From Candidatus Woesebacteria bacterium (lineage in GTDB: Bacteria > Patescibacteriota > Saccharimonadia > Saccharimonadales > EFPC-124), in contig JASFQB010000001.1 of the NCBI GenBank assembly GCA_050115675.1, forward strand, positions 162,616 to 203,430: a stretch of DNA of 40,815 nucleotides, in the 5' to 3' direction. The notes below the pieces were generated by a model. That model ran no database searches, was not told the origin of the DNA, and saw only the letters and a program-made list of their open reading frames with translations. The stretch's first letter is position 1, and each line of letters opens with the position of its first letter. The position numbers and the translations under genes were made by a program. Shown here piece after piece: positions 11,001-34,049 of the stretch.

Positions 11001-11239
11001 CTGATGTGATGGCTACTCTTGTTGATGTTGATGATGACGATACGGTTAGCTTAAACCTGAGGGATGTTAGTCTGCCAGTCGATCAATCGGCAACTGTCTT
11101 TAATGACGACGCTCAGAGCTTGAAGATGGACAATAGCGACGACAACTTTTGGGGAATTGCTGTGCTGATAATTGGAGCAATCGCAGTGCTTGTGGTCGCG
11201 ACTATTGGTGTAGTTGTTGCAAAAAAACGATATCAATAA
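8090..11239 (+). CDS. Giant surface protein: signal peptide, 12 NHL-type beta-propeller repeats, Ig-like domain, G/S linker, C-terminal module, TM tail anchor
   Basis: Twelve repeats of the form VLGQPDFT..(S/T)..G followed by N.RV.VFD(L). He_PIG/cadherin-like segment TLPTGLSFDASTHKISGMPTQSGTYTFSISVADDNG. C-terminal hydrophobic helix WGIAVLIIGAIAVLVVATIGVVVAKKRYQ. Confidence 0.8.
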   Translation: MFFVVRRACRACGYFVAILLVSLLQSSICSALVPYAASSVIGQESFDYGYKGPQSVGAPYGVSLDASSHLLFIADQSKNRVLVFETDPISNKPASKTAVHVLGQPNFATYSAGSGDSGISCPQGVFADSANKKLYVVDGDNNRVVIFDYSLGITDGMAASDVLGQPDFTTTSAGTTSSKMYYPVGIAMDSVEHRLFIAEDGNNRVLVFNLNSSNVLVDYTADNVLGQSNFTSSSAATTRSGLFSPASVAMDSVNNRLYISDKRNSRVIIHDISTISDGQDAVAMLGQVDYFSRVTGTTASNFYYCDGIAVDIAGHRLFVSEQNNYRILEFDLDSTNLPIDGVADGVIGQTDFVSRSTRYLDMDTDTIAAGQALMFDPINNYLYASNYFLDRVGIFDVSSITTGEDVVDLIGMQRYTSDSVVDVVRHRLFVVESQGNRVMVYNLDSNNNLIDTTPDNVIGQLTLVSQISGTSASRLNCIDASCSVDYDADRDMLFVGDGANGRVLLFDLSSGITNGMDATYVLGKPDFTDASCGSPTQRDMCANHGGLTYDSVNKRLFVVDGYNYRVLVFDLTTLESYKTASYVIGQSDFTSSDYGTSATRMTLDYAGIKIDPTTQYLYVSDAENNRVMVFNASPATIANGMSASYVIGQPDFTSSDYGTSQQSFDYPQGLALDTSRQELYVFGWGNMRVMRFDLSNLATNMSASAVIGQPDFTTGSTRVASQTAFRSDSINMGFDVANRRLYLPDSVNHRVMVFELAHISTATLSDATVGVNYSATIESSGIQGTASYSLASGTLPTGLSFDASTHKISGMPTQSGTYTFSISVADDNGAVGINTDTRSYSLTVENGGSGGGTDPSGGSGTSSASAESASVRGRAYVYAQSDEELLTQTSLDEMYLSSVTGFSSISGQTIDIVIGQVVHMSLQSGQQHTVTLKSIASDQRSVVVTFASTPQDVTLDWNVARPVDLDADGNPDVMATLVDVDDDDTVSLNLRDVSLPVDQSATVFNDDAQSLKMDNSDDNFWGIAVLIIGAIAVLVVATIGVVVAKKRYQ

Positions 11240-12970: not shown

Positions 12971-13452
12971 GGGTTACGTAAATTTTGCCAAATCTCCTGA
13001 CACAAACAGAATGACTTGACATGGGTATATGAGGCCTTCCAGATAAATCAAAAAAAGAACTTGATGACCGCAAAAAGCACACGTTTGTTAACGATAGCGG
13101 CAAAATCAGAGTAATGCCAGGTTGGATATAAGCATCGATAGCGCTCGATATTCAACGTTGGGCGCTATTTTAATGTTAATCCGTTTTGTGCGGTAGATCG
13201 CTAGCCGATAATATTGCATTCGTTATCAATTGCAATTGCCCGAGCACTAAGGGAGATATTGAAGAAACGGCAGATCCAATCGCGGACAGTGCAAATTCGT
13301 TTTAATAGCCCATCTGTAAGTGTCGTTATGAATAATCAACAGCATGAAATTATATAATGCAAGGATGCTTAGAGTTTTGGGCAACTATGTATTTGCAATT
13401 AAGTCAGAGTGGCTGTTATACTAAAAGTGATTAAGCTTTGAGGTTTGGGGAA

Positions 13453-22521: not shown

Positions 22522-25500
22522 ATGAAGGAGCAATCAGTTAAGCCGGGTTACGCAAAGGTATGGATAAATAGCAGGCATATTATTGTTTGCGAACTTGTTG
22601 GATTGATAGACGAAAGTGTTACGGATGTTTCTATACCGCAAACAGACGCAGCCGCAAAAGAATTGACATTGCAGGGTCGTCCCGTGTTGCTGCTTATTGA
22701 TGCTAGTAGGGCTACGAGCCAAACTAGCGGTGCTAGACTGGCAACAAAAGAGCTGGCTAAGATGCGCATTCAAAAAATTGCGGTTTGTGGCAAAGAAGCT
22801 TCTTTGATGCTTGCTGCTCAATATTTAATGCATATAACGAAGGCTGCTAAGTTTGCAAAATCGTTTAGAACATTTAAAAACGCTCAGGATTGGTTGATCA
22901 ATCCTTTTGTTGGGGCATCTTTGTCTCATGATAAAAGCATTGTTGGTGCAGTGTTTATCGGTGGTGTTGGCATAGTTGCGCTTTTGGCTAGTTTTTTACT
23001 TAAGACTATTATTGTTAATCCTGTAATTGCTGTGACATTTGTTGCATTATCGGCAGCTTTGCTTGTTTTTGGACTAAGTTTTAAACGGGGTGGAGGCGCT
23101 AGAAAAAGCCTCAATGCTGTTTTGGCCTGCTGGGTTATGATACTTGCTTCTTTAGTGTGGTTAAGGGTGTTTTGGGGAATCGATTCTAGTATTGACCACT
23201 GGTTGCTTTCTGATATCGTAACGCCGTATGCATATATTACGCCAAGGTCTGCTTTTAACTTTGCGCTTGTGGGTGTTGCTTTGTTGGTGCTGGCTATGGA
23301 TCATAGGCGTAAGTGGGAGCAGTATTTATTGCAATTTGTTTTGTTTGCCATATTTATAAATTCTGTTCTTACGGTTTTTGGATCGGCGTTTGGTGTTAAT
23401 TTTGCAGAGTCTATTGGATTTATCCCCATGCCTACTGTTGAGGCTCTTTGTTTTATGGCCGCAGCAAGCTCTATGTGGTTTTTGCTTGAACCGACTAAAG
23501 GGTTTAAGAGGGCGTTTGAATCTATTGAAAAATATCAACTTGTAATCATAACCTTCTCTGTAATGCTAATTGCTACGGGTGCTTTATGGCAACTTAGTCT
23601 AGCGGATTTAAGATCAAATATTAACTCTGCAGCACAGCGAGCTTATGCAGAACAGCAAAACTCTTTTGACGAAAGACTAGCTAGTTATACTAGCGTTCTT
23701 TATGGATACAAGTCCTTGTTTGAGGCGAGTAACGAGGTGACGTCACAGGAGTTTGAAACGTATTTCGATTCTTCAGAGACCAAAAAAAACTACCCTGGCT
23801 TGAACGGGATAGCCTTTATCAAAAAAGTTTTGACAGAGGATCAACAGCAGTTTGTAGACCATATGCGTCAGCAGCCTGTATCAGTAAATCCTAATTTTGC
23901 AGATTTCAATATTAGACCGCAAAGTGATCAAAACACGCTATACGTACTGTCATATATTGAACCAAATGATGTCGAGGGAGCTGTTGGATATGACTTAAGT
24001 AGTAGCGAAACACGGCGTAATACGTTAGAGAAATCGCGTGATACGGGCGAGATTGCCACGACGGGGACAGTAAACATTAACGCTGCTTTACCTGGTGACG
24101 CTGTAGAGAAGCTTGGTTTCTTTTCGACCCTGCCAATATACTCTGGCAAGGTTGGCTCGTCTGTGTCTGTCACAGTTGAAGATAGGCAAAGTAGTCTTTT
24201 GGGTTATGTAAATGCCTCTTTTGTTTACGAGACATTATTCGCGGACGTTTTTAAAGGAGCGGTTAATTCGGATGTTAAGTTTATAGTAAAAGACCTGGCT
24301 ACAGATACTGTGTTATATGGACAAAATTCGGATATATCTTCGGATGCTATTCCCGCATATCAGGGTAACATAAACATTAATGGGCGAATTTGGCAATTGC
24401 AAATGTACTCGAATAGCAATTTTGGAGCTAGTGATTCTGAAAGGCTGGTGCCAGTAATCGTAATTGTTGGTGGAATTGTTTTGTCTTTTTTGGCAGCGTT
24501 TTTAACATTGTCTCAAATTCTTAAGCGCCAGGAGGCAATGGGGATTGCCGAAATTATGACAGAAGATTTAAGTAATGAGCGCAACAATGCTGTAGTCGCT
24601 CGAGGCAAAAATGATACTATTCTTGCAAGCATAGGCGATGCAGTTTTTGCTATAGACAACAAAAATAGAATTACCTTGTTTAACTATGCCGCAGAGGTCA
24701 TAAGTGGACATTCTTCCAAAGAGGCTGTCGGCAAAAAGTATGATCAAATTTTAAAATTTGAACACCTAGAAAAGGGAGCATTCAGGGCAACCTCGAGTTT
24801 TATTAAGAGTGCTTTGGATGGTCGAATTGCGCATATCCAAGATAACTCATATTTGGTTCGCAAGGATGGGAGCAGGGTTGTGGTGTCGGATTCTGCCGCA
24901 CCAATAAAAGACGATAGAAAAAAAATTGTGGGCGCGGTTGTCGTATTTAGGGACGCAACTCGCGAAACAGAACTAAGTAAAGCCAAAGATGAATTTGTAT
25001 CTTTAGCATCGCATCAGCTGCGCACGCCTTTATCGGCTATAAATTGGTATTCAGAGATGCTGTTGAGTGGCGATGCGGGCAAGTTAAATAAAGAGCAGAG
25101 TAATTACTTGCAAGAAATATATAGTGGCAATCAGAGAATGATAAAACTGGTCAACTCATTATTGGATGTCTCGCGTATTGATCTTGGAAAGTTTATTAAT
25201 GAGCCCGTATCTGTATCTATAGGGTCTGTTGTTAAAAGTTTAAGAATTGAGCTATCAGAAAGTATTAAAGATAAAAAAATTGATTTTATTTTTCATATAT
25301 CTAAAAAGGTGCCTCACGTTAAGGCTGATCCAAAGCTTATTAGAATAGTGATGCAAAATTTGTTTTCTAATGCTATTAAGTATTCAAGAATGGGTGGCAA
25401 GATTGAGGTTAACGTGCGGTTGGCAGGCCCGGAAGATCGCCCAAACCGTAGATGTCCAGCCAATAAAGCTTGCATAATTATGACCGTAAAAGATGAGGGT

Positions 25501-25722
25501 ATCGGCATACCTAAGATGCAACAGCCTCATATTTTCGAAAAGCTGTTTCGTGCAGACAATGCACAAACGCAAGAGGTTGAGGGCAATGGACTTGGATTAT
25601 ATCTTGTGCGAGAGATAGTAACACGCCTTGGTGGATTAGTGTGGTTTACCTCGGAAGAAAACAAAGGAACAACATTTAATGTGATTGTGCCTTTAGAAAC
25701 CGAAAGGATAAACAGCAAATAA
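22522..25722 (+). CDS. Sensor histidine kinase: STAS-like N-terminal domain, multi-TM region, CHASE, TM, PAS, HisKA, HATPase_c
   Basis: H-box FVSLASHQLRTPLSAI, N-box QNLFSNAIKY and G-boxes DEGIGI / GNGLGLYLV. PAS segment ILASIGDAVFAIDNKNRITLFN...VVVFRDATRE. CHASE-like periplasmic segment NYPGLNGIAFIKKV...LYVLSYIEPN...AVGYDLSS...R..L.KSRDTGE flanked by TM helices. Confidence 0.9.
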   Translation: MKEQSVKPGYAKVWINSRHIIVCELVGLIDESVTDVSIPQTDAAAKELTLQGRPVLLLIDASRATSQTSGARLATKELAKMRIQKIAVCGKEASLMLAAQYLMHITKAAKFAKSFRTFKNAQDWLINPFVGASLSHDKSIVGAVFIGGVGIVALLASFLLKTIIVNPVIAVTFVALSAALLVFGLSFKRGGGARKSLNAVLACWVMILASLVWLRVFWGIDSSIDHWLLSDIVTPYAYITPRSAFNFALVGVALLVLAMDHRRKWEQYLLQFVLFAIFINSVLTVFGSAFGVNFAESIGFIPMPTVEALCFMAAASSMWFLLEPTKGFKRAFESIEKYQLVIITFSVMLIATGALWQLSLADLRSNINSAAQRAYAEQQNSFDERLASYTSVLYGYKSLFEASNEVTSQEFETYFDSSETKKNYPGLNGIAFIKKVLTEDQQQFVDHMRQQPVSVNPNFADFNIRPQSDQNTLYVLSYIEPNDVEGAVGYDLSSSETRRNTLEKSRDTGEIATTGTVNINAALPGDAVEKLGFFSTLPIYSGKVGSSVSVTVEDRQSSLLGYVNASFVYETLFADVFKGAVNSDVKFIVKDLATDTVLYGQNSDISSDAIPAYQGNININGRIWQLQMYSNSNFGASDSERLVPVIVIVGGIVLSFLAAFLTLSQILKRQEAMGIAEIMTEDLSNERNNAVVARGKNDTILASIGDAVFAIDNKNRITLFNYAAEVISGHSSKEAVGKKYDQILKFEHLEKGAFRATSSFIKSALDGRIAHIQDNSYLVRKDGSRVVVSDSAAPIKDDRKKIVGAVVVFRDATRETELSKAKDEFVSLASHQLRTPLSAINWYSEMLLSGDAGKLNKEQSNYLQEIYSGNQRMIKLVNSLLDVSRIDLGKFINEPVSVSIGSVVKSLRIELSESIKDKKIDFIFHISKKVPHVKADPKLIRIVMQNLFSNAIKYSRMGGKIEVNVRLAGPEDRPNRRCPANKACIIMTVKDEGIGIPKMQQPHIFEKLFRADNAQTQEVEGNGLGLYLVREIVTRLGGLVWFTSEENKGTTFNVIVPLETERINSK

Positions 25723-25757: not shown

Positions 25758-26120
25758 ATGACAAAGAACATTCTAATAATCGAAGACGAAAAACCCTTAG
25801 CAAAGGCAATGGAGTTAAAATTAAAAAAAGCTGGACATAATGTTCAGGTGTTTTATGACGGTCAAGGTGGTCTAGATGCTGCGGCAAAGCAAAAATTTGA
25901 TGTAGTTCTTCTTGACTTGATTATGCCGGTCTTAGATGGGTTCCAGGTTTTAGAAAAACTAAACAGCATGTCGTATAAGCCGTCGATTTTTGTACTTTCT
26001 AATCTTAGTCAGATAGAAGACGAGCAAAGAGCAATCAAACTGGGGGCAAAAAAATATTTAGTCAAGTCCGACACACCACTTACGACCATTGTAGATTACG
26101 TTAATAACACTGCTACGTAA
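25758..26120 (+). CDS. Single-domain response regulator (CheY-like receiver)
   Basis: ILIIEDE...VVLLDLIMPVLDG...LSNL...KKYLVKS places the acidic pocket, phospho-acceptor Asp, and Ser and Lys at the canonical positions. No output domain. Confidence 0.9.
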   Translation: MTKNILIIEDEKPLAKAMELKLKKAGHNVQVFYDGQGGLDAAAKQKFDVVLLDLIMPVLDGFQVLEKLNSMSYKPSIFVLSNLSQIEDEQRAIKLGAKKYLVKSDTPLTTIVDYVNNTAT

Positions 26121-26138
26121 GTGCAAGTAGAGGTGGGT

Positions 26139-27815
26139 ATGTATCCAGAAATTGGTGCACTAAAATCTATATTAACTGGCCAAGATTATATATCTCAAAA
26201 AGATAGCAACTTGGCAGAAAAGGCGTCAAAAAATTCTGACGAGTATGTTGATTATTTATTACGAGAAGGTTTGCTAACAAAGGCGTTGCTTGGGCAGGCT
26301 CTAGCAGAAGCATATAGGCTGCCGTATTCTGACTTGGTGATGCACCCACCTTTAAAAGAAGATATATCTAAGATTCCTGAGGATCTGGCTAAAAAACAAA
26401 GAGTGGTTGTTGTTAAGGATGCTGTAGATTTAACAACAATTGCGACTGATTCCCCTAATAATATTGATGCGACTGCATTAAAGAGTGTTTTGTCAAACAA
26501 GGCAATTAAATTGACATATGCTTTGCCGGAATATATCGCCGCAACGCTTTCTGGCTATCAGCGTCCGCTAGAGACAAGATTTTCGCAAATTATTGCTGGT
26601 AGTAGAAGAATTGCCCCAGAGATTGTAGAAGAAATTATAAAAGACGCCGTTGCGTATCGTGCGTCTGATATTCACTTTGAGCCACATCAAAACAGCGTTG
26701 TTGTGCGCTTTAGGGTTGATGGCAGACTGCGTAATGCAGGAACCATCCCAAAAGAATTTTACGAAAATGTTTTAAACCGTATAAAGGTAGAAGCGGGCTT
26801 AAGGATAGACGAGCATTACGCGGCGCAAGATGGCGCAATCCAAAAAAAACTTGAGTCTCGCACGGTTGATTTGCGTGTATCGCTTATTCCGACCGTTGAT
26901 GGCGAAAAAGTAGTAATGCGTGTTTTGGGGTCGTATGTTCAAAGCTTTAACTTTGCAGATGTTGGTTTGAGTGATGCAAATCGCGAAAAGCTATACAATT
27001 ACGCAAATAAACCGTTTGGTATGATTTTGGCAACTGGCCCTACTGGTTCGGGTAAAACAACTACGCTATATTCCTTGATAAAAATGTTAAATACACCCAG
27101 TGTCAATATTACTAGTATTGAGGACCCTGTGGAGTATAAAATTTTTGGAGTTAATCAAATTCAGGTGCGCGAAGCTACGGGCATTACTTTTGCTAAGGGG
27201 TTAAGATCTATCGTCCGCCAAGATCCAGATATTATTTTGGTTGGCGAAATTAGAGATCGTGAGACTGCCGAAATATCGGTAAATGCTGCGCTAACGGGAC
27301 ATTTGTTACTTTCTACATTTCATGCTAACGATGCCGCTACGGCAATACCGCGCCTAGTTGATATGGGAGTGGAGCCGTTTTTGATTGCCTCTACTTTAGA
27401 GGTTGTTATTGCACGGCGTTTGGTGCGCACAATCTGCAATAGCTGTAAATTTGGCATGCCTTTAGCTAATGCAATAAGTTCTTTGCAAAATAATAAAGCC
27501 AAAATAGAAACATATTTTTCTGCTAATGATACAGTTTATGCTGGCAAGGGCTGCGAGGTTTGTGGAAATACTGGGTATAGCGGTCGTACGGCACTGTTTG
27601 AACTTGTTGAGATCACTCCAGAAATGCAAGACTTAATACTAAAAAAACCATCAACACGCGAAGTCGCCGAACTTAGCCATGGGCAAGGTTCTAAAACCAT
27701 GTTTGAGGATGGCATAGACAAAATTAAAGGGGGGCAAACAACCATAAGCGAGGTTTTGCGTGTGGTAGAGGCTCCAAAAAATGACGAGCGGAGTGATCAG
27801 TGGCAGGGGCAATAG
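26139..27815 (+). CDS. pilB: Type IV pilus assembly ATPase PilB (GspE family)
   Basis: T2SSE N-terminal domain (LLREGLLTKALLGQALAEAYRLPY), Walker A GPTGSGKTTT, Asp/His boxes, Walker B ILVGEIRD and tetracysteine CNSC...CEVC. ATG 26139 follows GAGGTG. An alternative GTG at 26121 abuts the receiver stop. Confidence 0.93.
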   Translation: MYPEIGALKSILTGQDYISQKDSNLAEKASKNSDEYVDYLLREGLLTKALLGQALAEAYRLPYSDLVMHPPLKEDISKIPEDLAKKQRVVVVKDAVDLTTIATDSPNNIDATALKSVLSNKAIKLTYALPEYIAATLSGYQRPLETRFSQIIAGSRRIAPEIVEEIIKDAVAYRASDIHFEPHQNSVVVRFRVDGRLRNAGTIPKEFYENVLNRIKVEAGLRIDEHYAAQDGAIQKKLESRTVDLRVSLIPTVDGEKVVMRVLGSYVQSFNFADVGLSDANREKLYNYANKPFGMILATGPTGSGKTTTLYSLIKMLNTPSVNITSIEDPVEYKIFGVNQIQVREATGITFAKGLRSIVRQDPDIILVGEIRDRETAEISVNAALTGHLLLSTFHANDAATAIPRLVDMGVEPFLIASTLEVVIARRLVRTICNSCKFGMPLANAISSLQNNKAKIETYFSANDTVYAGKGCEVCGNTGYSGRTALFELVEITPEMQDLILKKPSTREVAELSHGQGSKTMFEDGIDKIKGGQTTISEVLRVVEAPKNDERSDQWQGQ

Positions 27816-28891
27816 AAACACTAGCGCATCGCAAGCAGGTGTATCTTCCGAGCAAAGATCGTATGTATTTTACGGCAAACTTGGCGCTGCTTTTGCAGGC
27901 TGCTGTGCCATTGGGCGATATTTTAACTTCAATGCAGCAGGCAACTAAGTCTAGTAAGTTTAAAAAAATATTAGATGACATGAAGTCAGATATTGCAGAA
28001 GGTATGCCTTTATGGAAAGTCATGGAGAGGTCAAGAATCGTTTCTTGGCAAACTGTGTCGTTGGCAAAGTTGGGCGAAGAATCTGGTAATTTGGCGCAAA
28101 ATTTAAAAATTGCCGCACAGCAAGAGCAAAAACAGCATGCGCTTCGATCAAAAATTACTACAGCGATGCTGTATCCGGCTTTTGTTTTTGGTATAACAAT
28201 TGTTGTTGGAATAGGTATTGTTTGGTTTTTGTTGCCGCGGCTTGCCGACACCTTTGCGGGTTTGGGCGTAGATTTGCCACTAATTACACAGATTGTAATA
28301 GCAATTGGTAAATTTGTGGGACAAAATGGTTTTTGGCTGATACCTGCGGTTATTGGTGTAATTACGCTGTTAGTTTACGTGTTATTTATTGCAAAAGCAA
28401 CTAAGTCAATTGGCAGAAGCTTACTGTTTCATACCCCGGGCGTGTCGCGTTTAATGCAAGAAGTGGAGGTGGCTAGTTTTGGCTATTTATTTGGTACTTT
28501 GCTTGGCGCGGGCTTAAGTGTTACTCAATCTTTGCGCATGATGTACGAGGCAGAAAACACTCCCGAATACAAAAAACTGTATAGCTTTTTGTATAATTCT
28601 TTTGACGATGGCTATAATTTAAAAACTAGCCTTGATAAGTACAAAAACAGCCAAAAATTGTTACCGCCAACAGTCCAGCAAATTGCAATTGCGGGCGAAA
28701 GCTCGGGCAATTTATCTCAGTCGTTGCTTGAAATAGGCAAAATTTACGAAGAAAAATCTGACACGACAGCTCAAAACTTGCAGGCAGTTCTTGAACCAAT
28801 TTTGCTAGTAATAGTTTGGCTTGGTGTTTTGTCGGTGGCTGTAGCGGTTATTTTGCCAATTTACAGCCTGGTTGGGGGTTTGCAGGCGTGA
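27800..28891 (+). CDS. pilC: Type IV pilus platform protein PilC (GspF family)
   Basis: Two T2SSF-type halves, each with TM helices (LLLQAAVPLGDIL...; LGTLLGAGLSVTQSLRM...). GTG start overlaps pilB by 16 nt. Confidence 0.88.
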   Translation: MAGAIETLAHRKQVYLPSKDRMYFTANLALLLQAAVPLGDILTSMQQATKSSKFKKILDDMKSDIAEGMPLWKVMERSRIVSWQTVSLAKLGEESGNLAQNLKIAAQQEQKQHALRSKITTAMLYPAFVFGITIVVGIGIVWFLLPRLADTFAGLGVDLPLITQIVIAIGKFVGQNGFWLIPAVIGVITLLVYVLFIAKATKSIGRSLLFHTPGVSRLMQEVEVASFGYLFGTLLGAGLSVTQSLRMMYEAENTPEYKKLYSFLYNSFDDGYNLKTSLDKYKNSQKLLPPTVQQIAIAGESSGNLSQSLLEIGKIYEEKSDTTAQNLQAVLEPILLVIVWLGVLSVAVAVILPIYSLVGGLQA

Positions 28892-29325
28892 GAGATGATG
28901 GTTTTAGCTTGTTGGAAGTATTGTTGTCTGTAGCAATTCTTGTTATGTTGGCGGGATTGTCGTTACCGGTTTTTGCGTCTTTTAACAATCGCAACGATTT
29001 AGATATTGCTGCTCAGTCGCTGGTTGACTCGCTACGGCGTGCACAGGTTTATGCGCGTGGCGTAAAGGCGGACGATCAATGGGGCGTGAATGTGCAGCAG
29101 GGTTCAATTACGGTATTTAAGGGGTCGGACTTTAATGCCAGAGATAGCTCTTATGACGAAGTGATAAGTATGCCATCAACTTTAACGCCAAGTGATATGA
29201 CTATGGTTGTATTTGCAAAAAACAACGCCAATCCTAGTCAGGCTGGTAGCTTTACATTAAGTTCGTCAGCGGCAAGCCAGATAAAAACGGTAACAATAAA
29301 TGAAAAAGGTACTGTCGAATATTAA
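28888..29325 (+). CDS. Prepilin-type minor pilin, GspH/FimT-like
   Basis: Class III signal VRDDG|FSLLEVLLSVAILVML (G-1, F+1, E+5). GspH-like DLDIAAQSLVDSLRRAQVYA. GTG start overlaps the pilC stop (GTGA). Confidence 0.8.
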   Translation: MRDDGFSLLEVLLSVAILVMLAGLSLPVFASFNNRNDLDIAAQSLVDSLRRAQVYARGVKADDQWGVNVQQGSITVFKGSDFNARDSSYDEVISMPSTLTPSDMTMVVFAKNNANPSQAGSFTLSSSAASQIKTVTINEKGTVEY

Positions 29326-30709
29326 ACTCAAACATCAAGATGGATTCTCGCCCATTGAGGTTTTATTGGCCGTTACGGTTTTTGGTATGTTTGTGGTAGC
29401 TTTGGTTGGCGTAATGGTTTTTGGGCAGTCGTCTGTTGCTAGTGCGGGCTATAATGAGCGCGCAACTTTTTTGGCGCAAGAGGCGCTTGACGCTGTTGGT
29501 AATATTCGAGACGAAAATATAAACAATATTAGCGATGGCACGTATGGCCTCGTGCAAAGTGGCGGAGTTTGGACTCTTGCAGAAACTCCAGACATTACGG
29601 ACGTTTATGCCAGATCCGTAACTATTTCTAGTATTGACGCTTACCGCAAAAATATAAATGCGCACGTAACTTGGTCGTACCGGGAAGGTCAAAAAAGCGT
29701 TGACCTGCAACGGTTACTAACGGGCTGGGGAAGCGTTGGAAAAACTTGGCTAAATGCTATAAAGGCTGGGTCGTACAATATATCTGGCACAAACAATGCG
29801 CTGAAAGTTGCCACCAGCGGCAATTATGCCTATGTTGTTCGCGGCAGTGGAAGTCCAAACTTTGCAGCAATAGACATTAGTGATTCTGCGACACCTGCTT
29901 TGGTGGGTGAACTAAGCTCACTAGCATCAAGTCCGACGGATATTTTTGTAAATGGCAATTATGCTTTTGTAACAACTTCGTCAAATTCGGCGGAGTTGCA
30001 GATAATTGATGTATCAAATCCAGCAGCGCCAACTATTGCTGGTACATATAATGCTCCGGGCAACGCAAATGGGTTGGCGGTTTTTGTTGAAGGTAGTTAT
30101 GCATATTTGGCTCGTGCGTCAAACGGAAATTCGCAAGAATTTTCAATTTTAGATATAAGTAATCCTGCATCTCCATTGCTTCTTGGGTCGTATAGCGACA
30201 ACATTTCTATGCGCGATGTGGTTGTGGGCGGCAACTACGCGTATATTGGAACAAGTTCGGTCTCGCAGGAGGTTTTGGTGATGGACGTGAATAACCCTGT
30301 TAGTCCAAATTTAGTAGCCACAATAAATATTGATGGCAATAAGTCCGTGTCTGCGTTGGCAAAAAGTGGCAATGTGCTTTTTGTGGCCAGATCAAGCAGC
30401 TTAGCAGCACTTGACGTTAGCGATCCTTTGGCTCCAGTGGTTGTGTCAGAAATATCCTCAGACGGTGGGGTAAATATTAACGATTTATCGGTAGATACCA
30501 CGGGCAACAACTATATTTTTATGGGCACAGATTTTGCGACTGGCGAGTTTCAGATTATTGATATGTCTGACCTTGCCAATATGACAGTAGTAAAAACGGT
30601 AGATGCAGACGGCGACATCAACGGTGTGTCGTACGATGCGGCTTTGGACGTGGTGGCTGGGGTTGGCGTGTCAAATAATGAGGAGTTAACGGTATTTGTC
30701 AAAAATTAA
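29300..30709 (+). CDS. Prepilin-like protein fused to a 7-bladed LVIVD-type beta-propeller
   Basis: Signal MKKVLSNIKLKHQDG|FSPIEVLLAVTVFGMFVV. From about aa 150 (nt 29750) there are seven units of the form G(N/S)YA(Y/F)V....(E/S)(L/F).I(I/L)D(V/I)S(N/D)P..P. Confidence 0.8.
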   Translation: MKKVLSNIKLKHQDGFSPIEVLLAVTVFGMFVVALVGVMVFGQSSVASAGYNERATFLAQEALDAVGNIRDENINNISDGTYGLVQSGGVWTLAETPDITDVYARSVTISSIDAYRKNINAHVTWSYREGQKSVDLQRLLTGWGSVGKTWLNAIKAGSYNISGTNNALKVATSGNYAYVVRGSGSPNFAAIDISDSATPALVGELSSLASSPTDIFVNGNYAFVTTSSNSAELQIIDVSNPAAPTIAGTYNAPGNANGLAVFVEGSYAYLARASNGNSQEFSILDISNPASPLLLGSYSDNISMRDVVVGGNYAYIGTSSVSQEVLVMDVNNPVSPNLVATINIDGNKSVSALAKSGNVLFVARSSSLAALDVSDPLAPVVVSEISSDGGVNINDLSVDTTGNNYIFMGTDFATGEFQIIDMSDLANMTVVKTVDADGDINGVSYDAALDVVAGVGVSNNEELTVFVKN

Positions 30710-30710
30710 T

Positions 30711-31229
30711 ATGAGTACTACACAAACCCCAAACATAAATAATCGTCTTGCAGGCTTTACTTTGATAGAACTTTTGCTTTACGTTGCCATAGTTGGTAGT
30801 TTACTTTTGGCTGTTGTTGCCTTTGTGATACTGTCGTTAGATTTGCGAGTAAAAAGTCAGGCGATATCAGAGGTGGATCAGCAGGGCGTTGCAATTATCC
30901 AGCAAATACAATACGCGATTAAAAATGCCAATTATGTAGTCTCTCCATCCCCTGGTGTATCTGCAGAAAGTTTAAGTTTAGCTGGGGCAAATTCTGTTAC
31001 GTTTAGCTTTTATTCAGACGCGATTGTTGTGTCAGAAGATGGTGGTAGTGATATTGCCTTGTCAAATAGCAAAGTAAAAATAAGCGATTTGCAGTTTACT
31101 AATTTATCTCGTCCGGGCACAAAAGGAATTGTGAAGGTTAGCCTTACGATTAGTCGCGTAAATACGTCTGGAGGGCAAGAATATAATTATCAAAAAACAT
31201 TCACAACCTCTGTGACGGTAGGGCAATAG
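30711..31229 (+). CDS. Prepilin-type minor pilin
   Basis: Signal MSTTQTPNINNRLAG|FTLIELLLYVAIVGSLLLAVV. ATG lies 1 nt after the upstream stop. Confidence 0.8.
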   Translation: MSTTQTPNINNRLAGFTLIELLLYVAIVGSLLLAVVAFVILSLDLRVKSQAISEVDQQGVAIIQQIQYAIKNANYVVSPSPGVSAESLSLAGANSVTFSFYSDAIVVSEDGGSDIALSNSKVKISDLQFTNLSRPGTKGIVKVSLTISRVNTSGGQEYNYQKTFTTSVTVGQ

Positions 31230-31230
31230 T

Positions 31231-31626
31231 ATGAGTGGTTATTGCAAAAAAGCAGACGGATATGTTGCACTAATAGCTGTTTTAATAGCTGGGGCTTTGG
31301 GGCTGGCGGTTTCTGTTGCGCTTTTGCTTGCGGGGACGGATAGCCAGCGTTCGGCGCTTGTTGTTAAACAATCGGCAAAGGCTAGTAGTGCTGCAAAATC
31401 GTGCATAGAAGAAGCAATGCAGCAAATTCGTTTTGATCATTCTTATACTGGTTCCGGATTACTCGAATTAAATGATTCAGATTGTCAGTACGACGTCACG
31501 GATGTAGGCTCAGAAAAAGATATAAACGCAACTGGGCAATCGGGCAGCGTTGTAAAGAAAGTCCAAGCGCGTGTTACAATAACATTATTAAGTATATCTA
31601 TTGCATCTTGGCAAGAAGTAGATTAA
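31231..31626 (+). CDS. PilX-like pseudopilin (no Glu at +5)
   Basis: MSGYCKKADG|YVALIAVLIAGALGLAVSVALLL is a hydrophobic pilin-like N-terminus without E5, as in PilX_N-type proteins. It starts 1 nt after the upstream stop. Confidence 0.65.
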   Translation: MSGYCKKADGYVALIAVLIAGALGLAVSVALLLAGTDSQRSALVVKQSAKASSAAKSCIEEAMQQIRFDHSYTGSGLLELNDSDCQYDVTDVGSEKDINATGQSGSVVKKVQARVTITLLSISIASWQEVD

Positions 31627-31643: not shown

Positions 31644-32108
31644 ATGTCAAACTCGCATAATATTAAAGATAAAAAAGGCTTTACGCTGCTAGAAGTTTTA
31701 CTTGTGGTTGCAATTATTGCAATTTTAGCAGGGATTGTAATTTTGGCAATTAACCCTGGCAAACAACTGGCAGATACCAGAAACGCGCAAAGACAGGCTG
31801 ACGTCTCTACAATAATTAGCGCAATTTATCAATATTCGCTTGATAACGATGGCAATGTTCCGGCTGGAATTACAACAACTGCAACAGAGATCTGCGCTAC
31901 AGGAGCAGCTAGTTGTACAGGCTTGGTTGATCTAAATGTCTTGACAGCAAATGGTGTTTATCTTGTGTCTTTGCCGTCTGATCCTCAGTGTAATACTGTT
32001 TGTGCTACAAATGGCAATGGCTATAGAGTTGTGAAAGATGCTAACGGTCGCATTACAGTAAGCGCGCCATATGCAGAGCAGGGTAGAGACATATCTGTGA
32101 GCAGGTAG
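31644..32108 (+). CDS. Type IV pilin, probable major subunit (PilA/PilE-like)
   Basis: MSNSHNIKDKKG|FTLLEVLLVVAIIAILAGIVILAINP, and two Cys pairs in the C-terminal head (CATGAASC, CNTVC). Strong SD aaAGGAGtggt. The listed ORF start at 31482 is an upstream extension overlapping the previous gene. Confidence 0.85.
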   Translation: MSNSHNIKDKKGFTLLEVLLVVAIIAILAGIVILAINPGKQLADTRNAQRQADVSTIISAIYQYSLDNDGNVPAGITTTATEICATGAASCTGLVDLNVLTANGVYLVSLPSDPQCNTVCATNGNGYRVVKDANGRITVSAPYAEQGRDISVSR

Positions 32109-32112
32109 CAAA

Positions 32113-32226
32113 ATGATACCAAGGCGCACCAATCAGCTAAAAGTTGATCCACTGTCTTACCTCCTTGTAATAACCTTTACGGTGTTGTCACTTGTGTTTT
32201 TGGGTATGGCAATCTGGCGATACTGA
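32113..32226 (+). CDS. 37-aa single-TM microprotein (not in the ORF track)
   Basis: MIPRRTNQLKVDPLSYLLVITFTVLSLVFLGMAIWRY. ATG lies 4 nt after the pilin stop. It is the last ORF before the hairpin at 32237. The SD is weak. Confidence 0.35.
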   Translation: MIPRRTNQLKVDPLSYLLVITFTVLSLVFLGMAIWRY

Positions 32227-32236
32227 TTAAATGAAA

Positions 32237-32278
32237 AACGCCCAGAGTTATTCACATACGTAAACAACTCTGGGCGTT
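32237..32278. terminator. Long hairpin between the pilin operon and the convergent gene
   Basis: 13-bp stem aacgcccagagtt (32237-32249) / aactctgggcgtt (32266-32278). An A5 run on the plus-strand 5' side gives a U-tract for the minus-strand transcript. Confidence 0.65.
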
Positions 32279-32283
32279 GTGCG

Positions 32284-32859
32284 CTACTTGATGAGTAGCG
32301 ACATCAGGGCTCCCTCGAACGGCAGGCCGTTGACTAGTTCGATCTCGACAGCCAGTCCAAGCGCGGCAGCGACCTCGATCCTGTCGTGCTTGGCAAGTTC
32401 GTCGAGGTTGACGGTCATCTGGCGGCCAAGTGCCCACGAGATTGCCAGGAGTGCGCGTTGCAGATTTGTATCTGGCAACTGCTCTGGAACCTCGGGCGTG
32501 AATGCCCGAGTGGTTGTGGGGTAGGCGATGCCAAGACTGTCAAGCGGCTCGCCACTATTCAGCGAGTCGCTCCACCACTGAAACCGCATGAGTGTTTGCG
32601 CAAGCTTTTTCAGTAGTCTGCCTTCGTCTTCGCGGCCTTCAGGCTTGCAGTGGGCAAGGACAGTTTTGCTAGCTGACGCCACACCCATGCAACCGTATTT
32701 GAAGTCTCCAAAGGCCTCGTTGTCGTCGCTCTCGGCGTAGACTTGGATTAGGCGGCTCGCAGCTTCGGCGAGAGTGACCTCGAACAGCCCCTCGTCTTCC
32801 AGTCTGGCGTAAGAGCCTTCTGGTGTGTTTAGGTAGCGATTAAGATCCAACAGGCGCAT
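32284..32859 (-). CDS. Hypothetical protein on a GC-elevated segment
   Basis: Samples at 32341-32400 and 32701-32760 are 60-62% G+C by hand count. SD aaAGGAGcgatgga precedes the ATG. No family recognised. Confidence 0.6.
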   Translation of the reverse strand: MRLLDLNRYLNTPEGSYARLEDEGLFEVTLAEAASRLIQVYAESDDNEAFGDFKYGCMGVASASKTVLAHCKPEGREDEGRLLKKLAQTLMRFQWWSDSLNSGEPLDSLGIAYPTTTRAFTPEVPEQLPDTNLQRALLAISWALGRQMTVNLDELAKHDRIEVAAALGLAVEIELVNGLPFEGALMSLLIK

Positions 32860-32900
32860 TCCATCGCTCCTTTGTGTGTAGGATATGCACTCTAGGTCTC

Positions 32901-32929
32901 ATTATAATATATTTTTTTGCATATGTCAA
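32901..32929 (-). promoter_or_regulatory. Perfect consensus sigma70-type promoter, TTGACA-17 nt-TATAAT
   Basis: On the minus strand, TTGACA (32924-32929), a 17-nt spacer and TATAAT (32901-32906). This lies about 40 nt upstream of ATG 32859. Confidence 0.6.
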
Positions 32930-33014
32930 TGTTACCTAAAGGCGAATATCCCCCAAGCAAATAAAGCTGATTGTCTTGAGGGGATGGTTGCCTATCTAAA
33001 ATTAAAACCGCTTA

Positions 33015-33047
33015 AAGCAATTTCTGCTCTAAGCGGTTAATGACTAG
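33015..33047 (-). terminator. Rho-independent terminator of the 119-aa gene
   Basis: Roughly 13-bp stem (33015-33028 / 33034-33047, one mismatch). On the minus strand it is followed by ttttaatttt. Confidence 0.65.
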
Positions 33048-33403
33048 GCCGCAAGTTCGATCATTTGATTGATACAGCTGTTAAGTCTAAAGCTTGCAAG
33101 CTCTTCTCGGTCGGTTACCATGCGGCAATATACAAACATCCATTCGCCAATGAGTACGTGCGCAAGTACGCAATGGTCCGTACAGGGGTTGTTGTCGCGT
33201 AAAAGCGTCAATAGCACCTCTTGCTGATTGTCGGTTGTGCGGGTTTCTCGCGGGACGCCAATAAAAATTAATTCAGCGTCGATTATAGGGTTGCGCTGGT
33301 TGCGGTAGGCTTCGAGCCATGATTGCACCGTTTTGTCGGTATTAATTCCTTGAGTCGTGTCAGTGACGACGACGAGCCTCATGGCTAAATCAAAAGCGCT
33401 CAT
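33044..33403 (-). CDS. Hypothetical protein
   Basis: 119-aa ORF with SD aaaGGGAGcaag and its own terminator. No family recognised. Confidence 0.5.
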   Translation of the reverse strand: MSAFDLAMRLVVVTDTTQGINTDKTVQSWLEAYRNQRNPIIDAELIFIGVPRETRTTDNQQEVLLTLLRDNNPCTDHCVLAHVLIGEWMFVYCRMVTDREELASFRLNSCINQMIELAA

Positions 33404-33541
33404 CTTGCTCCCTTTCGATAGTCGAAAGATATAATCGTATTATACAATCAAAAACCATTTTTACAAATACTGATATAAAAATCAACAAAAAGCAAGAATA
33501 TAGTATAATATTTTGGTCGACACCTACGCTTGGAGGCTGTT

Positions 33542-33961
33542 GTGAACTCTTGCGTCAATCCATTTGGTAGCGTATTTAAAAACCCAACCTTGCTTCAACG
33601 GCTTATTTGCGCAAGGCTAGAATTGGATCGACAGCAGCGTTACAGTACATTGGTGCAGTTTGGTAATCTTACGGGTTGCCTGATGCGCTGTATGACTGCT
33701 CGAAAAGCGTGTATTGATGATCCAGATTTGGGTATTGCGTCTGATGAGTTAATGCGCATCGAGGATGAAATATCTAGTGTGGTTGAGGCTGCAGTTCAAT
33801 TGTGGCCAATTGGGTGCGGTGACAGTATCGCAATTACTCAACGCAGCAGGCATGACTTGGCGGTGCAACGGGTGATCGAAGTTGCTATGAAATATGGCTT
33901 TACAGATATTGAAGGATATTTTTTGGCACATCCATATCCAGTTGAGGTAAGTGTGATCTGA
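33542..33961 (+). CDS. Hypothetical protein
   Basis: GTG at 33542 lies 5 nt after GGAGG. The listed TTG at 33530 overlaps the SD. A TAGTATAAT -10 element is at 33501-33509. No family recognised. Confidence 0.5.
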   Translation: MNSCVNPFGSVFKNPTLLQRLICARLELDRQQRYSTLVQFGNLTGCLMRCMTARKACIDDPDLGIASDELMRIEDEISSVVEAAVQLWPIGCGDSIAITQRSRHDLAVQRVIEVAMKYGFTDIEGYFLAHPYPVEVSVI

Positions 33962-33966
33962 AAGTT

Positions 33967-34049
33967 CCCCAGAGTGCCAGTTGCATTCTGGGGATATAAA
34001 TTTTGAAGTTGGGCGACAGTGTAAGCTGTCGCCCTGTTTTGCAGTTTTA
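33967..34049. terminator. Two tandem hairpins between convergent genes
   Basis: First stem ccccagagtgc (33967-33977) / gcattctgggg (33983-33993). Second stem gggcgacag (34011-34019) / ctgtcgccc (34026-34034), followed by tgttttgcagtttt. Confidence 0.6.

What the first reader, a model, noticed from the sequence alone, without database searches (positions are those of the whole stretch)
29300..30709. Pilin fused to a seven-bladed beta-propeller, a possible built-in tip adhesin analogous to PilY1
The ORF begins with a complete class III (prepilin) signal: a basic leader, G|FSPIE with Glu at +5, and a hydrophobic helix. A pilin-sized domain of about 145 aa follows. Seven repeats of the G-N-Y-A-Y/F-V ... 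I-D-V/I-S-N/D-P-x-x-P type, which I recognise as LVIVD-like beta-propeller blades, occupy nt 29750-30706. The gene sits among minor-pilin genes (GspH/FimT-like, pilin-like, PilX-like) before the major pilin. In Pseudomonas or Neisseria, minor pilins prime the fibre and present the separate beta-propeller adhesin PilY1/PilC in that arrangement. Here the propeller is covalently attached to a pilin N-terminus, so it could be inserted into the fibre itself and displayed at the tip. I do not know of a characterised example with this repeat type.
Basis: partly seen in the sequence, partly recalled or inferred. Interest (0 to 1): 0.7.

Follow-up and report, generated by a model that had tools for sequence, protein, structure and literature searches.

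The report
Pilus tip subunit carrying a propeller
A minor subunit of the type IV pilus of an uncultivated Saccharibacteria-type bacterium carries a seven-bladed propeller domain, one of many interchangeable 'cargo' domains this subunit displays in related bacteria, probably to grip host cells; it is a real example of a known design (a modular pilin), not a new kind of system.

Summary
ORF 29300-30709 (+, 469 aa) has a conserved prepilin signal (G15|F16, invariant Glu+5). It has a small pilin module (residues 16-146) and a C-terminal seven-bladed LVIVD beta-propeller (Pfam E=8e-34; AlphaFold pLDDT 90, 28 strands = 7x4). It lies in a tightly coupled operon: HK-RR-PilB-PilC-H-[this gene]-W-X-major pilin.

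First, the design is not unprecedented. Pilin-LVIVD architectures were catalogued in 2021 (about 30 proteins). In the cultivated Saccharibacterium TM7x, a pilin with a different (RCC1) seven-bladed propeller, PilX2, is required for the host-binding pilus.

Second, the pilin module is a conserved carrier. In 62 syntenic loci the same slot holds no cargo, Cys-knots, beta-domains with or without FN3, lectin-like domains, other repeat domains or the LVIVD propeller. The four neighbouring pilins keep constant length. Carriers about 80% identical bear different cargo, so cargo has been swapped repeatedly.

The X pilin never has Glu+5 (0/55), so it is the likely cap. The propeller-bearing subunit then sits just below it in the tip complex.

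Function as a tip-displayed binding module is inferred, not shown. Verdict: a new member of a known kind, of moderate interest.

The parts
22522..25722 (+). Sensor histidine kinase (CHASE-PAS-HisKA-HATPase), first gene of the conserved cluster
   Evidence: Pfam CHASE 1e-34, HisKA 1e-17, HATPase_c 2e-25. An HK lies upstream in many syntenic loci.
25758..26120 (+). Response regulator (receiver domain only)
   Evidence: Pfam Response_reg 2.5e-22. It is conserved directly upstream of PilB in most loci.
26121..27815 (+). PilB-type assembly ATPase with an MshEN-like N-terminal domain
   Evidence: Pfam T2SSE 6.6e-118 and MshEN 3e-5.
27800..28891 (+). PilC-type platform protein
   Evidence: Pfam T2SSF 3.9e-44, two stretches.
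28888..29325 (+). Minor pilin H (GspH/FimT-like), 145 aa. The GTG start overlaps the pilC stop (GTGA). Signal MRDDG|FSLLE.
   Evidence: N_methyl 1e-4. Weak GspH (3e-5) and PRK10506 (4e-6) hits. The sequence was read. Independent gene call of 145 aa.
29300..30709 (+). The finding: a modular minor pilin of 469 aa, made of an I/PilV-position carrier pilin plus an LVIVD propeller
29300..29344 (+). Class III leader peptide (residues 1-15, ending in Gly15)
   Evidence: G15, F16 and S17 are at least 90% conserved and E20 is invariant.
29345..29737 (+). Carrier pilin module (residues 16-146): alpha1 helix 18-72 and beta-sheet 80-141, ending at the invariant W143
   Evidence: AF2 models. The module aligns end to end with carriers that bear other cargo, with 17 invariant positions. 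784 cluster representatives match at E<=1e-10.
29747..30706 (+). Seven-bladed LVIVD beta-propeller cargo (residues 150-469)
   Evidence: PF08309 8e-34. 28 strands in the AF2 model. Seven repeat units. Foldseek hits to seven-bladed propellers.
30711..31229 (+). Minor pilin W (J-position), 172 aa, signal LAG|FTLIE. It starts 1 nt after the upstream stop.
   Evidence: N_methyl 3e-4. Weak ComGF, HpsB and GspJ hits. Sequence read. Constant length of about 176 aa in 61 loci.
31231..31626 (+). Minor pilin X (K-position), 131 aa, KKADG|YVALI with no Glu+5; the presumed cap subunit
   Evidence: Sequence read. Glu+5 is absent in 0/55 orthologues, with the motif G|Y[VI]AL. Length is constant at 126-137 aa. 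No Pfam or NCBIfam family hit.
31644..32108 (+). Major pilin, 154 aa, signal KDKKG|FTLLE, preceded by a strong AAGGAG ribosome-binding site
   Evidence: N_methyl 2.4e-8. TIGR02532 6e-8. Sequence read. Independent gene call of 154 aa.

Best explanation
The gene encodes a modular minor type IV pilin. A prepilin peptidase is expected to cut after Gly15. The N-terminal helix and small head (residues 16-146) form an I/PilV-position core minor pilin. Together with the co-translated H, W and X pilins it would form the priming complex from which the pilus grows. X, which lacks Glu+5, would cap that complex. This subunit keeps Glu+5, so it would dock beside or just below X. Its C-terminal seven-bladed LVIVD propeller, joined by a linker of about 10 residues after W143, would then be carried out of the cell at the distal end of the fibre.

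The propeller is cargo, not machinery. It is one of many alternative surface-binding modules that this carrier displays in related Patescibacteria. It most likely binds a ligand on the surface of the bacterium that the episymbiont lives on.

What is shown: the gene structure, signal, fold, operon, carrier conservation and cargo interchange. What is inferred: cleavage, tip location and ligand binding. The ligand is unknown.
For: Signal and start. G15, F16 and S17 are at least 90% conserved and E20 is invariant. The gene call is confirmed independently.

Fold. AF2 pLDDT is 90.4, with a pilin lollipop plus a 7x4-strand propeller. LVIVD scores E=8e-34.

Operon. The order is HK-RR-PilB-PilC-H-carrier-W-X-A. 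Junctions are overlapping or 1 nt apart through H-V-W-X, and only the major pilin has a strong SD. The same order appears in all 62 loci that have usable flanks.

Carrier and cargo. The module alone finds 784 cluster representatives at E<=1e-10. It is always N-terminal, in proteins of 111-1266 aa. Of the top 150, 51 carry LVIVD, 65 carry another extension of at least 60 aa, and 34 have less than 60 aa. In 78 complete syntenic genes the cargo is: none (8); a Cys-knot of about 56 aa (27) or a tandem knot (2); LVIVD (23); 18 others of 186 to 1136 aa. Cargo with Pfam labels includes fn3, ConA-like lectin with DUF2341, and SpaA/Cna_B, which are typical adhesin parts. The lengths of H, W, X and A are constant; only this slot varies.

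Swapping. Carrier identity is the same within and between cargo classes (53.7% against 53.3%). Carriers 78-80% identical bear LVIVD in one locus and a Cys-knot in another.

Cargo-less orthologues exist in the same operon, so the propeller is not needed for the machinery.

X lacks Glu+5 in 0/55 loci. Tip complexes are capped by a Glu5-less subunit, and assembly runs from tip to base (PMC10191384).

Precedents. The modular pilins PilB and PilC of S. sanguinis are adhesins (PMC8179133). The propeller pilin PilX2 of TM7x is required for the host-binding pilus T4P-2 (PMC12206443).

The propeller is related to the surface-displayed 'choice-of-anchor B' family (TIGR04312, 7.8e-18, below its cut-off).
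Against: There is no direct evidence of processing, pilus incorporation, tip location or binding. No ligand is known for any LVIVD propeller.

Pfam N_methyl does not score on this protein itself, although it does on many homologues.

The I/PilV assignment of the carrier is weak. PilV scores 22 bits against a cut-off of 52, XpsI scores 21 against 150, and the best fold match is EpsI at E=0.15.

I could not model the H-V-W-X complex, so steric compatibility is untested.

No prepilin peptidase, PilT or PilMNO was found among the window ORFs I scanned. About ten of the smaller ORFs were not scanned.

The B-C and D-A loop face, which binds ligands in WD40 propellers, is the more conserved face here. 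The binding surface is therefore not obvious.
Confidence: 0.6

Rival explanations
1. Surface receptor anchored by a pilin-type helix but never carried on a long fibre. The class III signal and helix would serve only as a membrane or short-pseudopilus anchor, as in the archaeal 'bindosome' sugar-binding proteins or T2SS pseudopili. The propeller would then sit at the cell surface.
For: No retraction ATPase, PilMNO or prepilin peptidase was seen among the window ORFs I scanned. LVIVD propellers are related to the 'choice-of-anchor' surface proteins, which use many different anchors. Nothing here shows fibre incorporation.
Against: The gene is embedded in a translationally coupled H-I-J-K-type minor-pilin set, next to a major pilin with a strong RBS, in 62 of 62 loci. 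Glu+5, which serves subunit docking in filaments, is invariant (PMC10191384). Saccharibacteria make real T4P that reach their hosts (PMC12206443; PMC11880426).
Confidence: 0.15
2. The propeller is a structural or priming element, like the C-terminal propeller of PilY1. It would stabilise or cap the minor-pilin complex and counteract retraction rather than bind a ligand.
For: PilY1/PilC share a seven-bladed propeller that interacts with the tip minor pilins (PMC8179133; PMC10191384). One face of the LVIVD propeller is well conserved.
Against: Orthologous operons work with no cargo at all, or with a 56-aa Cys-knot, in the same slot. Cargo classes are exchanged between carriers about 80% identical. 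There is no PilY1/PilC Pfam match. No PilT gene is present in the operon.
Confidence: 0.1
3. The propeller is an enzyme, for example a hydrolase acting on the host envelope, delivered on the pilus.
For: The best PDB fold match is a propeller phosphotriesterase (5hrm, E=1.8e-12). Modular pilins with peptidase modules exist (PMC8179133).
Against: No His, Cys or clustered acidic residues are conserved. The conserved polar residues are repeat-structural: the YAY motif and one Glu per blade. 5hrm shows only 15% identity and does not match at the sequence level (E=0.39). The alternative cargoes are adhesin- or lectin-like.
Confidence: 0.07
4. The subunit is inserted sporadically along the shaft rather than only at the tip, so the fibre is decorated with several propellers.
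For: The subunit has Glu+5 like shaft pilins. Raynaud et al. do not exclude a body location for modular pilins if the linker is flexible.
Against: The linker is short, about 10 residues. A 320-aa propeller on a 130-aa pilin is bulky. The gene belongs to the coupled H-V-W-X set, not to the major pilin's expression unit. Core HIJK-type pilins are located at the tip.
Confidence: 0.08

Closest known systems
Modular type IV pilins (Streptococcus sanguinis PilB with a vWA module, PilC with a lectin module; Raynaud et al. 2021, PMC8179133)
   Same: A small N-terminal pilin module with a class III signal, a short linker, and a bulky C-terminal module that is not specific to pilus biology. The module is proposed to be exposed at the tip and to mediate adhesion. 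The same paper's Dataset S1 lists IPR012902-(IPR013211)n, i.e. pilin-LVIVD architectures, in 30 proteins.
   Different: The cargo fold here is an LVIVD propeller of unknown function, not vWA or lectin. The host organism is a patescibacterial episymbiont. Here the carrier is one orthologous slot in a conserved H-I-J-K operon, and its cargo is swapped between lineages. The pilin-LVIVD architecture itself has never been studied experimentally as far as the searched literature shows.
PilX2 of Nanosynbacter lyticus TM7x (Grossman et al., ISME J 2025, PMC12206443)
   Same: A Saccharibacteria minor pilin with a C-terminal seven-bladed beta-propeller, encoded in a FimT-V-W-X-major pilin gene set. It is required for T4P-2, the host-tethering pilus, and is proposed to be the adhesin.
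   Different: Its blades are described as RCC1 repeats, whereas the window protein has LVIVD repeats and no RCC1 Pfam hit at E<=1. PilX2 occupies the X position next to the major pilin and has no predicted PilD signal. The window protein occupies the V/I position and has a canonical G|F...E5 signal. In 54 loci of the window's operon type, X is always 126-137 aa with no cargo. A direct sequence comparison was not possible because no TM7x sequence was available in the tools.
PilY1 / PilC tip adhesins of Pseudomonas, Neisseria and Myxococcus
   Same: A seven-bladed propeller located at the pilus tip together with the H-I-J-K minor pilins. It has a role in adhesion.
   Different: PilY1 is not a pilin; it docks non-covalently on the minor pilins. 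Its propeller (IPR008707) is described as the carrier and its N-terminal domains as the effectors. Here the pilin is the carrier and the propeller is the effector. No PF05567-type match was found.
GspI / PilV / PilI ('I' subunit of the HIJK tip complex)
   Same: It is the second gene of the H-I-J-K order. It has a small head of about 130 aa and keeps Glu+5. JGI annotates several homologues as 'PilV'. The best fold hit is EpsI, and there are weak PilV and XpsI profile hits.
   Different: All of these matches fall below curated or significance thresholds. No known I subunit carries a 320-aa C-terminal domain.
LVIVD / 'choice-of-anchor B' cell-surface propellers (PF08309, TIGR04312)
   Same: The same repeat family. 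The propeller-only part matches proteins in Aminicenantes, Bacteroidota, Planctomycetota and archaea, among others.
   Different: Those proteins lack the pilin N-terminus. Full-length matches in reference genomes were found only in Saccharibacteria/Saccharimonadia MAGs.

Membership tests
Type IV pilin (class III signal peptide protein) | Short basic leader ending in Gly, a hydrophobic +1 residue, Glu at +5, followed by a hydrophobic helix of about 20 residues | tested here: met
   The sequence reads MKKVLSNIKLKHQDG|FSPIEVLLAVTVFGMFVVALVGVMVFG. G15, F16 and S17 are at least 90% conserved and E20 is invariant in 54 homologues.
Type IV pilin (class III signal peptide protein) | Profile match to N_methyl (PF07963 / TIGR02532) | tested here: inconclusive
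   There is no hit at E<=1 on the window protein itself. PF07963 is precomputed on many full-length homologues and scores on cargo variants that carry the same module.
Type IV pilin (class III signal peptide protein) | Lollipop fold: a long N-terminal alpha1 helix packed on an antiparallel beta-sheet | tested here: met
   AF2 gives a helix at 18-72 and strands at 80-141, with pLDDT 87-90.
Type IV pilin (class III signal peptide protein) | Cleavage and N-methylation by a prepilin peptidase, and incorporation into a filament | not testable with these tools
   This needs biochemistry. No peptidase gene was found among the window ORFs I scanned.
Type IV pilin (class III signal peptide protein) | Encoded with the assembly ATPase, the platform protein and other pilins | tested here: met
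   PilB, PilC, four other pilins and the same order in 62 loci.
Modular pilin (sensu Raynaud et al. 2021) | An N-terminal pilin module fused through a short linker to a domain that is not specific to pilus biology | tested here: met
   Module 16-146, a linker of about 10 residues, and an LVIVD propeller at 150-469. The same architecture, IPR012902-IPR013211, is listed in Dataset S1.
LVIVD repeat beta-propeller (PF08309) | Score above the Pfam gathering threshold, with multiple repeats | tested here: met
   115.2 bits against 20.2, in 5 scored stretches. Seven units are visible in the sequence.
LVIVD repeat beta-propeller (PF08309) | A closed propeller fold | tested here: met
   28 strands (7x4) at pLDDT above 90. 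Foldseek probability is 1.0 to seven-bladed propellers. This is a predicted structure, not a solved one.
PilY1 / PilC tip adhesin (PF05567, IPR008707) | Sequence match to the PilY1/PilC C-terminal propeller family | tested here: not met
   No such Pfam hit at E<=1.
PilY1 / PilC tip adhesin (PF05567, IPR008707) | A non-pilin protein that docks on the minor pilins | tested here: not met
   The window protein is itself a pilin with a class III signal.
GspI / PilV 'I' minor pilin | Profile match above the curated cut-off | tested here: not met
   TIGR02523 PilV scores 22.4 bits against a cut-off of 52.2. NF047828 XpsI scores 21 bits against 150.
GspI / PilV 'I' minor pilin | Structural similarity to solved I subunits | tested here: inconclusive
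   The top Foldseek hit is EpsI (2ret_C), but with E=0.15 and probability 0.72.
GspI / PilV 'I' minor pilin | Second position in an H-I-J-K gene order, with a Glu5-less K subunit | tested here: met
   The order is H(28888)-this gene-W-X, and X lacks Glu+5 in 0/55 loci.
TM7x PilX2-type propeller pilin | RCC1-repeat propeller | tested here: not met
   No RCC1 family hit at E<=1; the blades are LVIVD. The description of PilX2 comes from PMC12206443.
TM7x PilX2-type propeller pilin | Sequence homology of the pilin module to PilX2 | not tested
   No TM7x sequence could be fetched with the tools available. By position, PilX2 is the X pilin and this protein is the V pilin.
Choice-of-anchor B (TIGR04312) | Score above the NCBIfam cut-off | tested here: not met
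   64.9 bits against a cut-off of 100, at E=7.8e-18. It is related but not a member by the curated threshold.

The most novel reading that the evidence does not exclude
The second minor pilin (I/PilV position) of a widespread patescibacterial type IV pilus operon is a dedicated cargo-display slot. A conserved carrier of about 145 aa has its C-terminus, right after an invariant Trp, repeatedly exchanged between at least eight unrelated binding modules: the LVIVD propeller, two other repeat domains, Cys-knots, a beta-domain with or without FN3, LamG/DUF2341, others, or nothing. The other four pilins stay fixed. On this reading the slot is the episymbiont's host-recognition determinant and evolves by cassette exchange, much as phage receptor-binding proteins do. 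The window's LVIVD propeller would be one allele class.
Probability: 0.4. Interest if true: 0.65.

Novelty: new member of a known kind. Interest (0 to 1): 0.42.

Why it matters
How ultrasmall Patescibacteria find and hold their host cells is largely unknown. Type IV pili are the best-supported attachment device, and in the one genetically tractable case a propeller-bearing minor pilin is the key component.

This window shows a second, independent way of putting a propeller on the pilus: a different repeat family on a different minor pilin. The locus survey shows that this position is a hot spot for exchanging surface-binding domains across many lineages. If cargo type tracks host type, it would allow partners of uncultivated episymbionts to be predicted from sequence. 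It would also give LVIVD repeats, a widespread domain with no known function, a testable role.

The gene itself is an ordinary member of a family that was already catalogued.

Tried and rejected
(1) The search for related loci with the 54-sequence alignment A1 and with the mixed-cargo module alignment A4 failed because neither had a sufficiently conserved stretch. The smaller alignments A2 and A5 worked.

(2) A profile search of PDB sequences gave nothing significant for either module: best hits were Kelch at 0.004 and LT-IIB at 0.04. There is no solved close relative.

(3) The Foldseek search with the pilin module alone gave no hit at E<=0.001. EpsI came top but was not significant.

(4) The Foldseek search against viral structures returned only generic propellers, some of them in large phage proteins. 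This says nothing specific about receptor binding.

(5) Literature searches for LVIVD with pilin or propeller found no study of this fusion. The Cell 2023 Tn-seq paper and the Mycosynbacter cryo-ET paper do not discuss it.

(6) Single-linkage clustering of cargo sequences merged almost everything, because multi-domain cargoes share modules such as the Cys-knot and the beta-domain. I used a propeller profile plus stricter coverage instead.

(7) My regular expression for Glu+5 mis-registered on the W pilins. The printed segments (..LIEL..) show that Glu+5 is present.

(8) I considered a start codon downstream of the signal and rejected it, because of the conservation of residues 1-20 and the independent gene call.

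(9) I considered that the carrier-module proteins of about 270 aa were truncated LVIVD genes. They are not: they are complete genes with a different beta-domain.
Full report
1. THE OBSERVATION

The ORF 29300..30709 (+, ATG, 469 aa) is present. It begins MKKVLSNIKLKHQDG|FSPIEVLL.... I aligned 54 full-length homologues of 37-64% identity. M1, G15, F16 and S17 are at least 90% conserved, and E20 (Glu+5 of the mature protein) is invariant. The class III signal is therefore part of the protein, and a downstream start is excluded.

An independent gene call on the public contig that carries the identical protein (Logan SRR11713588, 114,665 bp) gives products of 145, 469, 172, 131 and 154 aa for the five pilin genes. 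This matches the boundaries I derived from the sequence.

Pfam scores LVIVD (PF08309) at E=8.1e-34, 115 bits against a gathering score of 20.2, in five stretches. It also gives a weaker Beta_propel hit. Seven repeat units of 43-49 aa can be written out between residues 150 and 469, i.e. nt 29747-30706.

2. STRUCTURE

AlphaFold2 with the 54-sequence alignment gives a confident model (mean pLDDT 90.4, pTM 0.74). It has an alpha1 helix at 18-72, a six-stranded sheet at 80-141, and a short dip in confidence around residues 141-150. After that come 28 strands between 154 and 467, i.e. seven four-stranded blades.

Foldseek against the PDB returns only propellers. The top hit is the seven-bladed phosphotriesterase 5hrm (E=1.8e-12), followed by seven-bladed WD40 domains such as WDR5 (TM 0.80 normalised to the target). 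A propeller of seven blades is therefore supported. It remains a prediction: no sequence relative of either module is in the PDB.

3. CONTEXT IN THE WINDOW

The gene sits in a co-directional cluster:
- CHASE-PAS histidine kinase (22522-25722)
- response regulator (25758-26120)
- PilB ATPase (26121-27815; T2SSE E=7e-118)
- PilC platform protein (27800-28891; T2SSF E=4e-44)
- pilin H (28888-29325; weak GspH-type hits)
- this gene
- pilin W (30711-31229)
- pilin X (31231-31626)
- major pilin (31644-32108; N_methyl 2e-8)

H starts on the stop codon of pilC (GTGA). This gene starts 26 nt inside H. W and X each start 1 nt after the preceding stop. Only the major pilin has a spacer with a strong AAGGAG site. 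That pattern fits an equimolar minor-pilin complex and an abundant major pilin. This is an inference.

The order H, small Glu5-containing pilin, W, Glu5-less X, major pilin is the H-I-J-K order of core minor pilins.

4. THE FAMILY

The full-length protein has more than 1,900 relatives at E<=0.001 in the 5.8-billion-protein collection. Almost all of the best 120 are 450-500 aa and cover 96-100% of the query (the few exceptions are longer forms of about 760-800 aa). Where they have names, these are 'Tfp pilus assembly protein PilV', 'prepilin-type N-terminal cleavage/methylation domain-containing protein' or 'hypothetical'. The named sources are Saccharimonadales/Saccharimonadia, Moraniibacteriota and Gracilibacteria MAGs.

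In species-representative genomes, full-length matches occur only in Saccharibacteria/Saccharimonadia MAGs. The propeller alone matches proteins of many other phyla and of archaea. A few relatives of 760-800 aa have additional LVIVD repeats, consistent with two propellers.

5. THE PILIN MODULE IS A CARRIER WITH INTERCHANGEABLE CARGO

In Saccharibacteria UBA2018 (L010) the syntenic gene shares only residues 1-143 with the window protein (41% identity). It continues into a different repeat domain of 416 aa with W-N-G-S-x-W motifs and no Pfam hit.

I then searched 1.84 billion cluster representatives with residues 1-150 alone. This gave 1,889 hits at E<=0.001 and 784 at E<=1e-10. In the top 150 the module is always N-terminal, and total lengths run from 111 to 1,266 aa. 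Of these 150:
- 51 carry the LVIVD propeller
- 27 carry a Thr/Ser-rich beta-domain of about 130 aa
- 21 carry the W-N-G-S-x-W repeats
- a few carry Cys-rich domains
- several carry FN3 arrays, ConA-like lectin with DUF2341, or SpaA/Cna_B-type domains
- 34 have less than 60 aa after the module

Carrier modules from different cargo classes align end to end with 17 invariant positions. The junction lies just after the invariant W143.

6. THE SAME OPERON SLOT HOLDS ALL THESE VARIANTS

A metagenome scan seeded with non-LVIVD carriers returned 80 loci. I analysed these together with nine of the reference-genome loci. 78 carrier genes are complete at the 3' end. Their cargo is:
- none: 8
- a Cys-knot of 48-63 aa: 27
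- a tandem knot: 2
- 186-310 aa: 6
- LVIVD, 319-346 aa: 23
- 363-481 aa: 10
- 884 aa and 1,136 aa: 2
The proportions are biased by the seed patterns.

In all 62 loci with usable flanks the order is (HK)-RR-PilB-PilC-H-carrier-W-X-A, whatever the cargo. H (126-150 aa), W (about 176 aa, with one outlier), X (126-137 aa) and A (about 154 aa) keep their length. Only the carrier varies.

Carrier identity within the LVIVD class (53.7%) equals that between LVIVD and other classes (53.3%). Carriers 78-80% identical bear LVIVD in one locus and a Cys-knot in another (L071/L075, L036/L064). Cargo has therefore been exchanged repeatedly. It did not diverge once.

7. HOW IT MOST LIKELY WORKS

Tip complexes of core minor pilins are capped by a subunit lacking Glu5. 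Filaments grow from tip to base. Glu5 pairs with the N-terminal amine of the subunit above (PMC10191384).

In 55 orthologous loci X never has Glu+5; its motif is G|Y[VI]AL. H has Glu+5 in 40 of 51 loci, the major pilin in 59 of 61, and the carrier always. I therefore place X at the apex and the propeller-bearing subunit directly beside or below it. This still puts the propeller at the distal end of the fibre.

Cargo-less orthologues in the same operon show that the machinery does not need the propeller. This argues against a PilY1-like structural role.

No His or Cys is conserved in the propeller. The conserved polar residues are the repeated YAY motif and one Glu per blade, which argues against a metallo-hydrolase site like that of 5hrm.

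The pilin module is more conserved than the propeller (55.7% against 45.3% mean pairwise identity). Within the propeller, the A-B and C-D loops and the innermost strand vary most. I read the face that carries those loops as the candidate ligand side. This is speculative.

Processing, incorporation, tip location and binding are all inferred. The ligand is unknown.

8. COMPARISON WITH WHAT IS KNOWN

(a) Modular pilins. Raynaud et al. 2021 showed that PilB of S. sanguinis is a pilin with a grafted vWA adhesin module. They found more than 1,200 modular pilins with 264 architectures. Their Dataset S1 lists IPR012902 followed by 1-13 copies of IPR013211 in 30 proteins. IPR013211 is the LVIVD repeat. 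The architecture was therefore already catalogued, described as being of unknown function, and not studied.

(b) TM7x PilX2. This is a minor pilin with a seven-bladed RCC1-type propeller. It is the only minor pilin required for the host-tethering pilus T4P-2 and is proposed as the adhesin. Its locus reads pilZ2 (FimT-like)-pilV2-pilW2-pilX2-pilA2. There the propeller sits on the X-position pilin, which has no predicted PilD signal. In the window it sits on the V-position pilin, which has a canonical signal, and the repeat family is different (no RCC1 hit). I read the two as independent fusions with the same logic. I could not compare the sequences directly.

(c) PilY1/PilC. The fold class and the location are the same, but there is no family match and the logic is reversed: PilY1 is a non-pilin whose propeller docks on the minor pilins.

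(d) GspI/PilV. The position, size, Glu5 and weak hits agree, but nothing reaches a threshold.

9. VERDICT

It needs three corrections: the subunit is not the very tip, the PilY1 analogy is loose, and the design is not unprecedented.

The gene is a new member of a known kind, a modular pilin with the pilin-LVIVD architecture. If cargo determines host recognition, this would be a useful handle on the partner specificity of uncultivated episymbionts.

Noticed in passing
window 32200-34000: Directly downstream of the major pilin, ORFs on both strands (191, 119 and 143 aa) have no Pfam match. GC rises to 0.474 against about 0.42 in the pilus operon. The genes downstream of the major pilin differ in size and arrangement in L001, L003 and L010. 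This may be an inserted or lineage-specific segment.
   Followed up: partly
window 8090-11239 and 13438-16002: Two large putative surface proteins lie upstream. One is a 1,049-aa NHL-repeat/He_PIG protein, which is another beta-propeller type. The other is an 854-aa protein with three FN3 domains. FN3 and He_PIG also occur as pilin cargo elsewhere (Dataset S1 of PMC8179133).
   Followed up: no
window 29300-29325; L001 5950-5975; L003 6019-6044; L010 6001-6026: The 26-nt overlap between the end of pilin H (...GTVEY*) and the start of the carrier gene is conserved in length in all four loci inspected. This suggests obligatory translational coupling.
   Followed up: partly
L028 (Ga0209542_10002443), upstream of 7001: Between PilC and pilin H this locus has about six consecutive ORFs whose best match is the major pilin (pattern PilB-PilC-A-A-A-A-A-A-H). 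This would be an array of major-pilin paralogues.
   Followed up: no
L043 124-1460: The cargo on the same carrier consists of about seven repeats of roughly 44 aa with the motif YYD..N..LKYA.C...C....SW..(V/I).D..G.VG. This is an unannotated, probably propeller-like repeat with a Cys pair per unit.
   Followed up: no
L037, L053, L064, L074 and 23 other loci, directly after the carrier module: The commonest cargo in the metagenome sample is a six-Cys domain of about 56 aa (C..Y....GY..G.CR.N..QC..N.E.Y...GD..C.....DTCC). It occurs singly, in tandem, or combined with other domains, and has no Pfam match.
   Followed up: partly
window 26121-27815: The PilB ATPase has an N-terminal MshEN-type domain (E=3e-5). 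The operon is preceded by a CHASE-PAS histidine kinase and a receiver-only response regulator in most loci. This hints at signal-controlled pilus assembly.
   Followed up: no
L005, first W-type ORF after the carrier: The W pilin appears to be 332 aa here against about 176 aa in the other 60 loci. It may be a fused or mis-delimited gene, or a rare second cargo site.
   Followed up: no
window 30-1085: A Fic/DOC domain protein (E=3e-16) lies at the window start. It is followed by NUDIX, APH-like kinase and CYTH domain genes. These are unrelated to the pilus cluster.
   Followed up: no
P0224 (1,266 aa), P0251 (944 aa), P0127 (849 aa), P0255 (657 aa): Some carriers bear an LVIVD propeller together with further domains, or bear two propellers. 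In P0127 and P0255 the propeller starts only 200-400 residues after the carrier.
   Followed up: no
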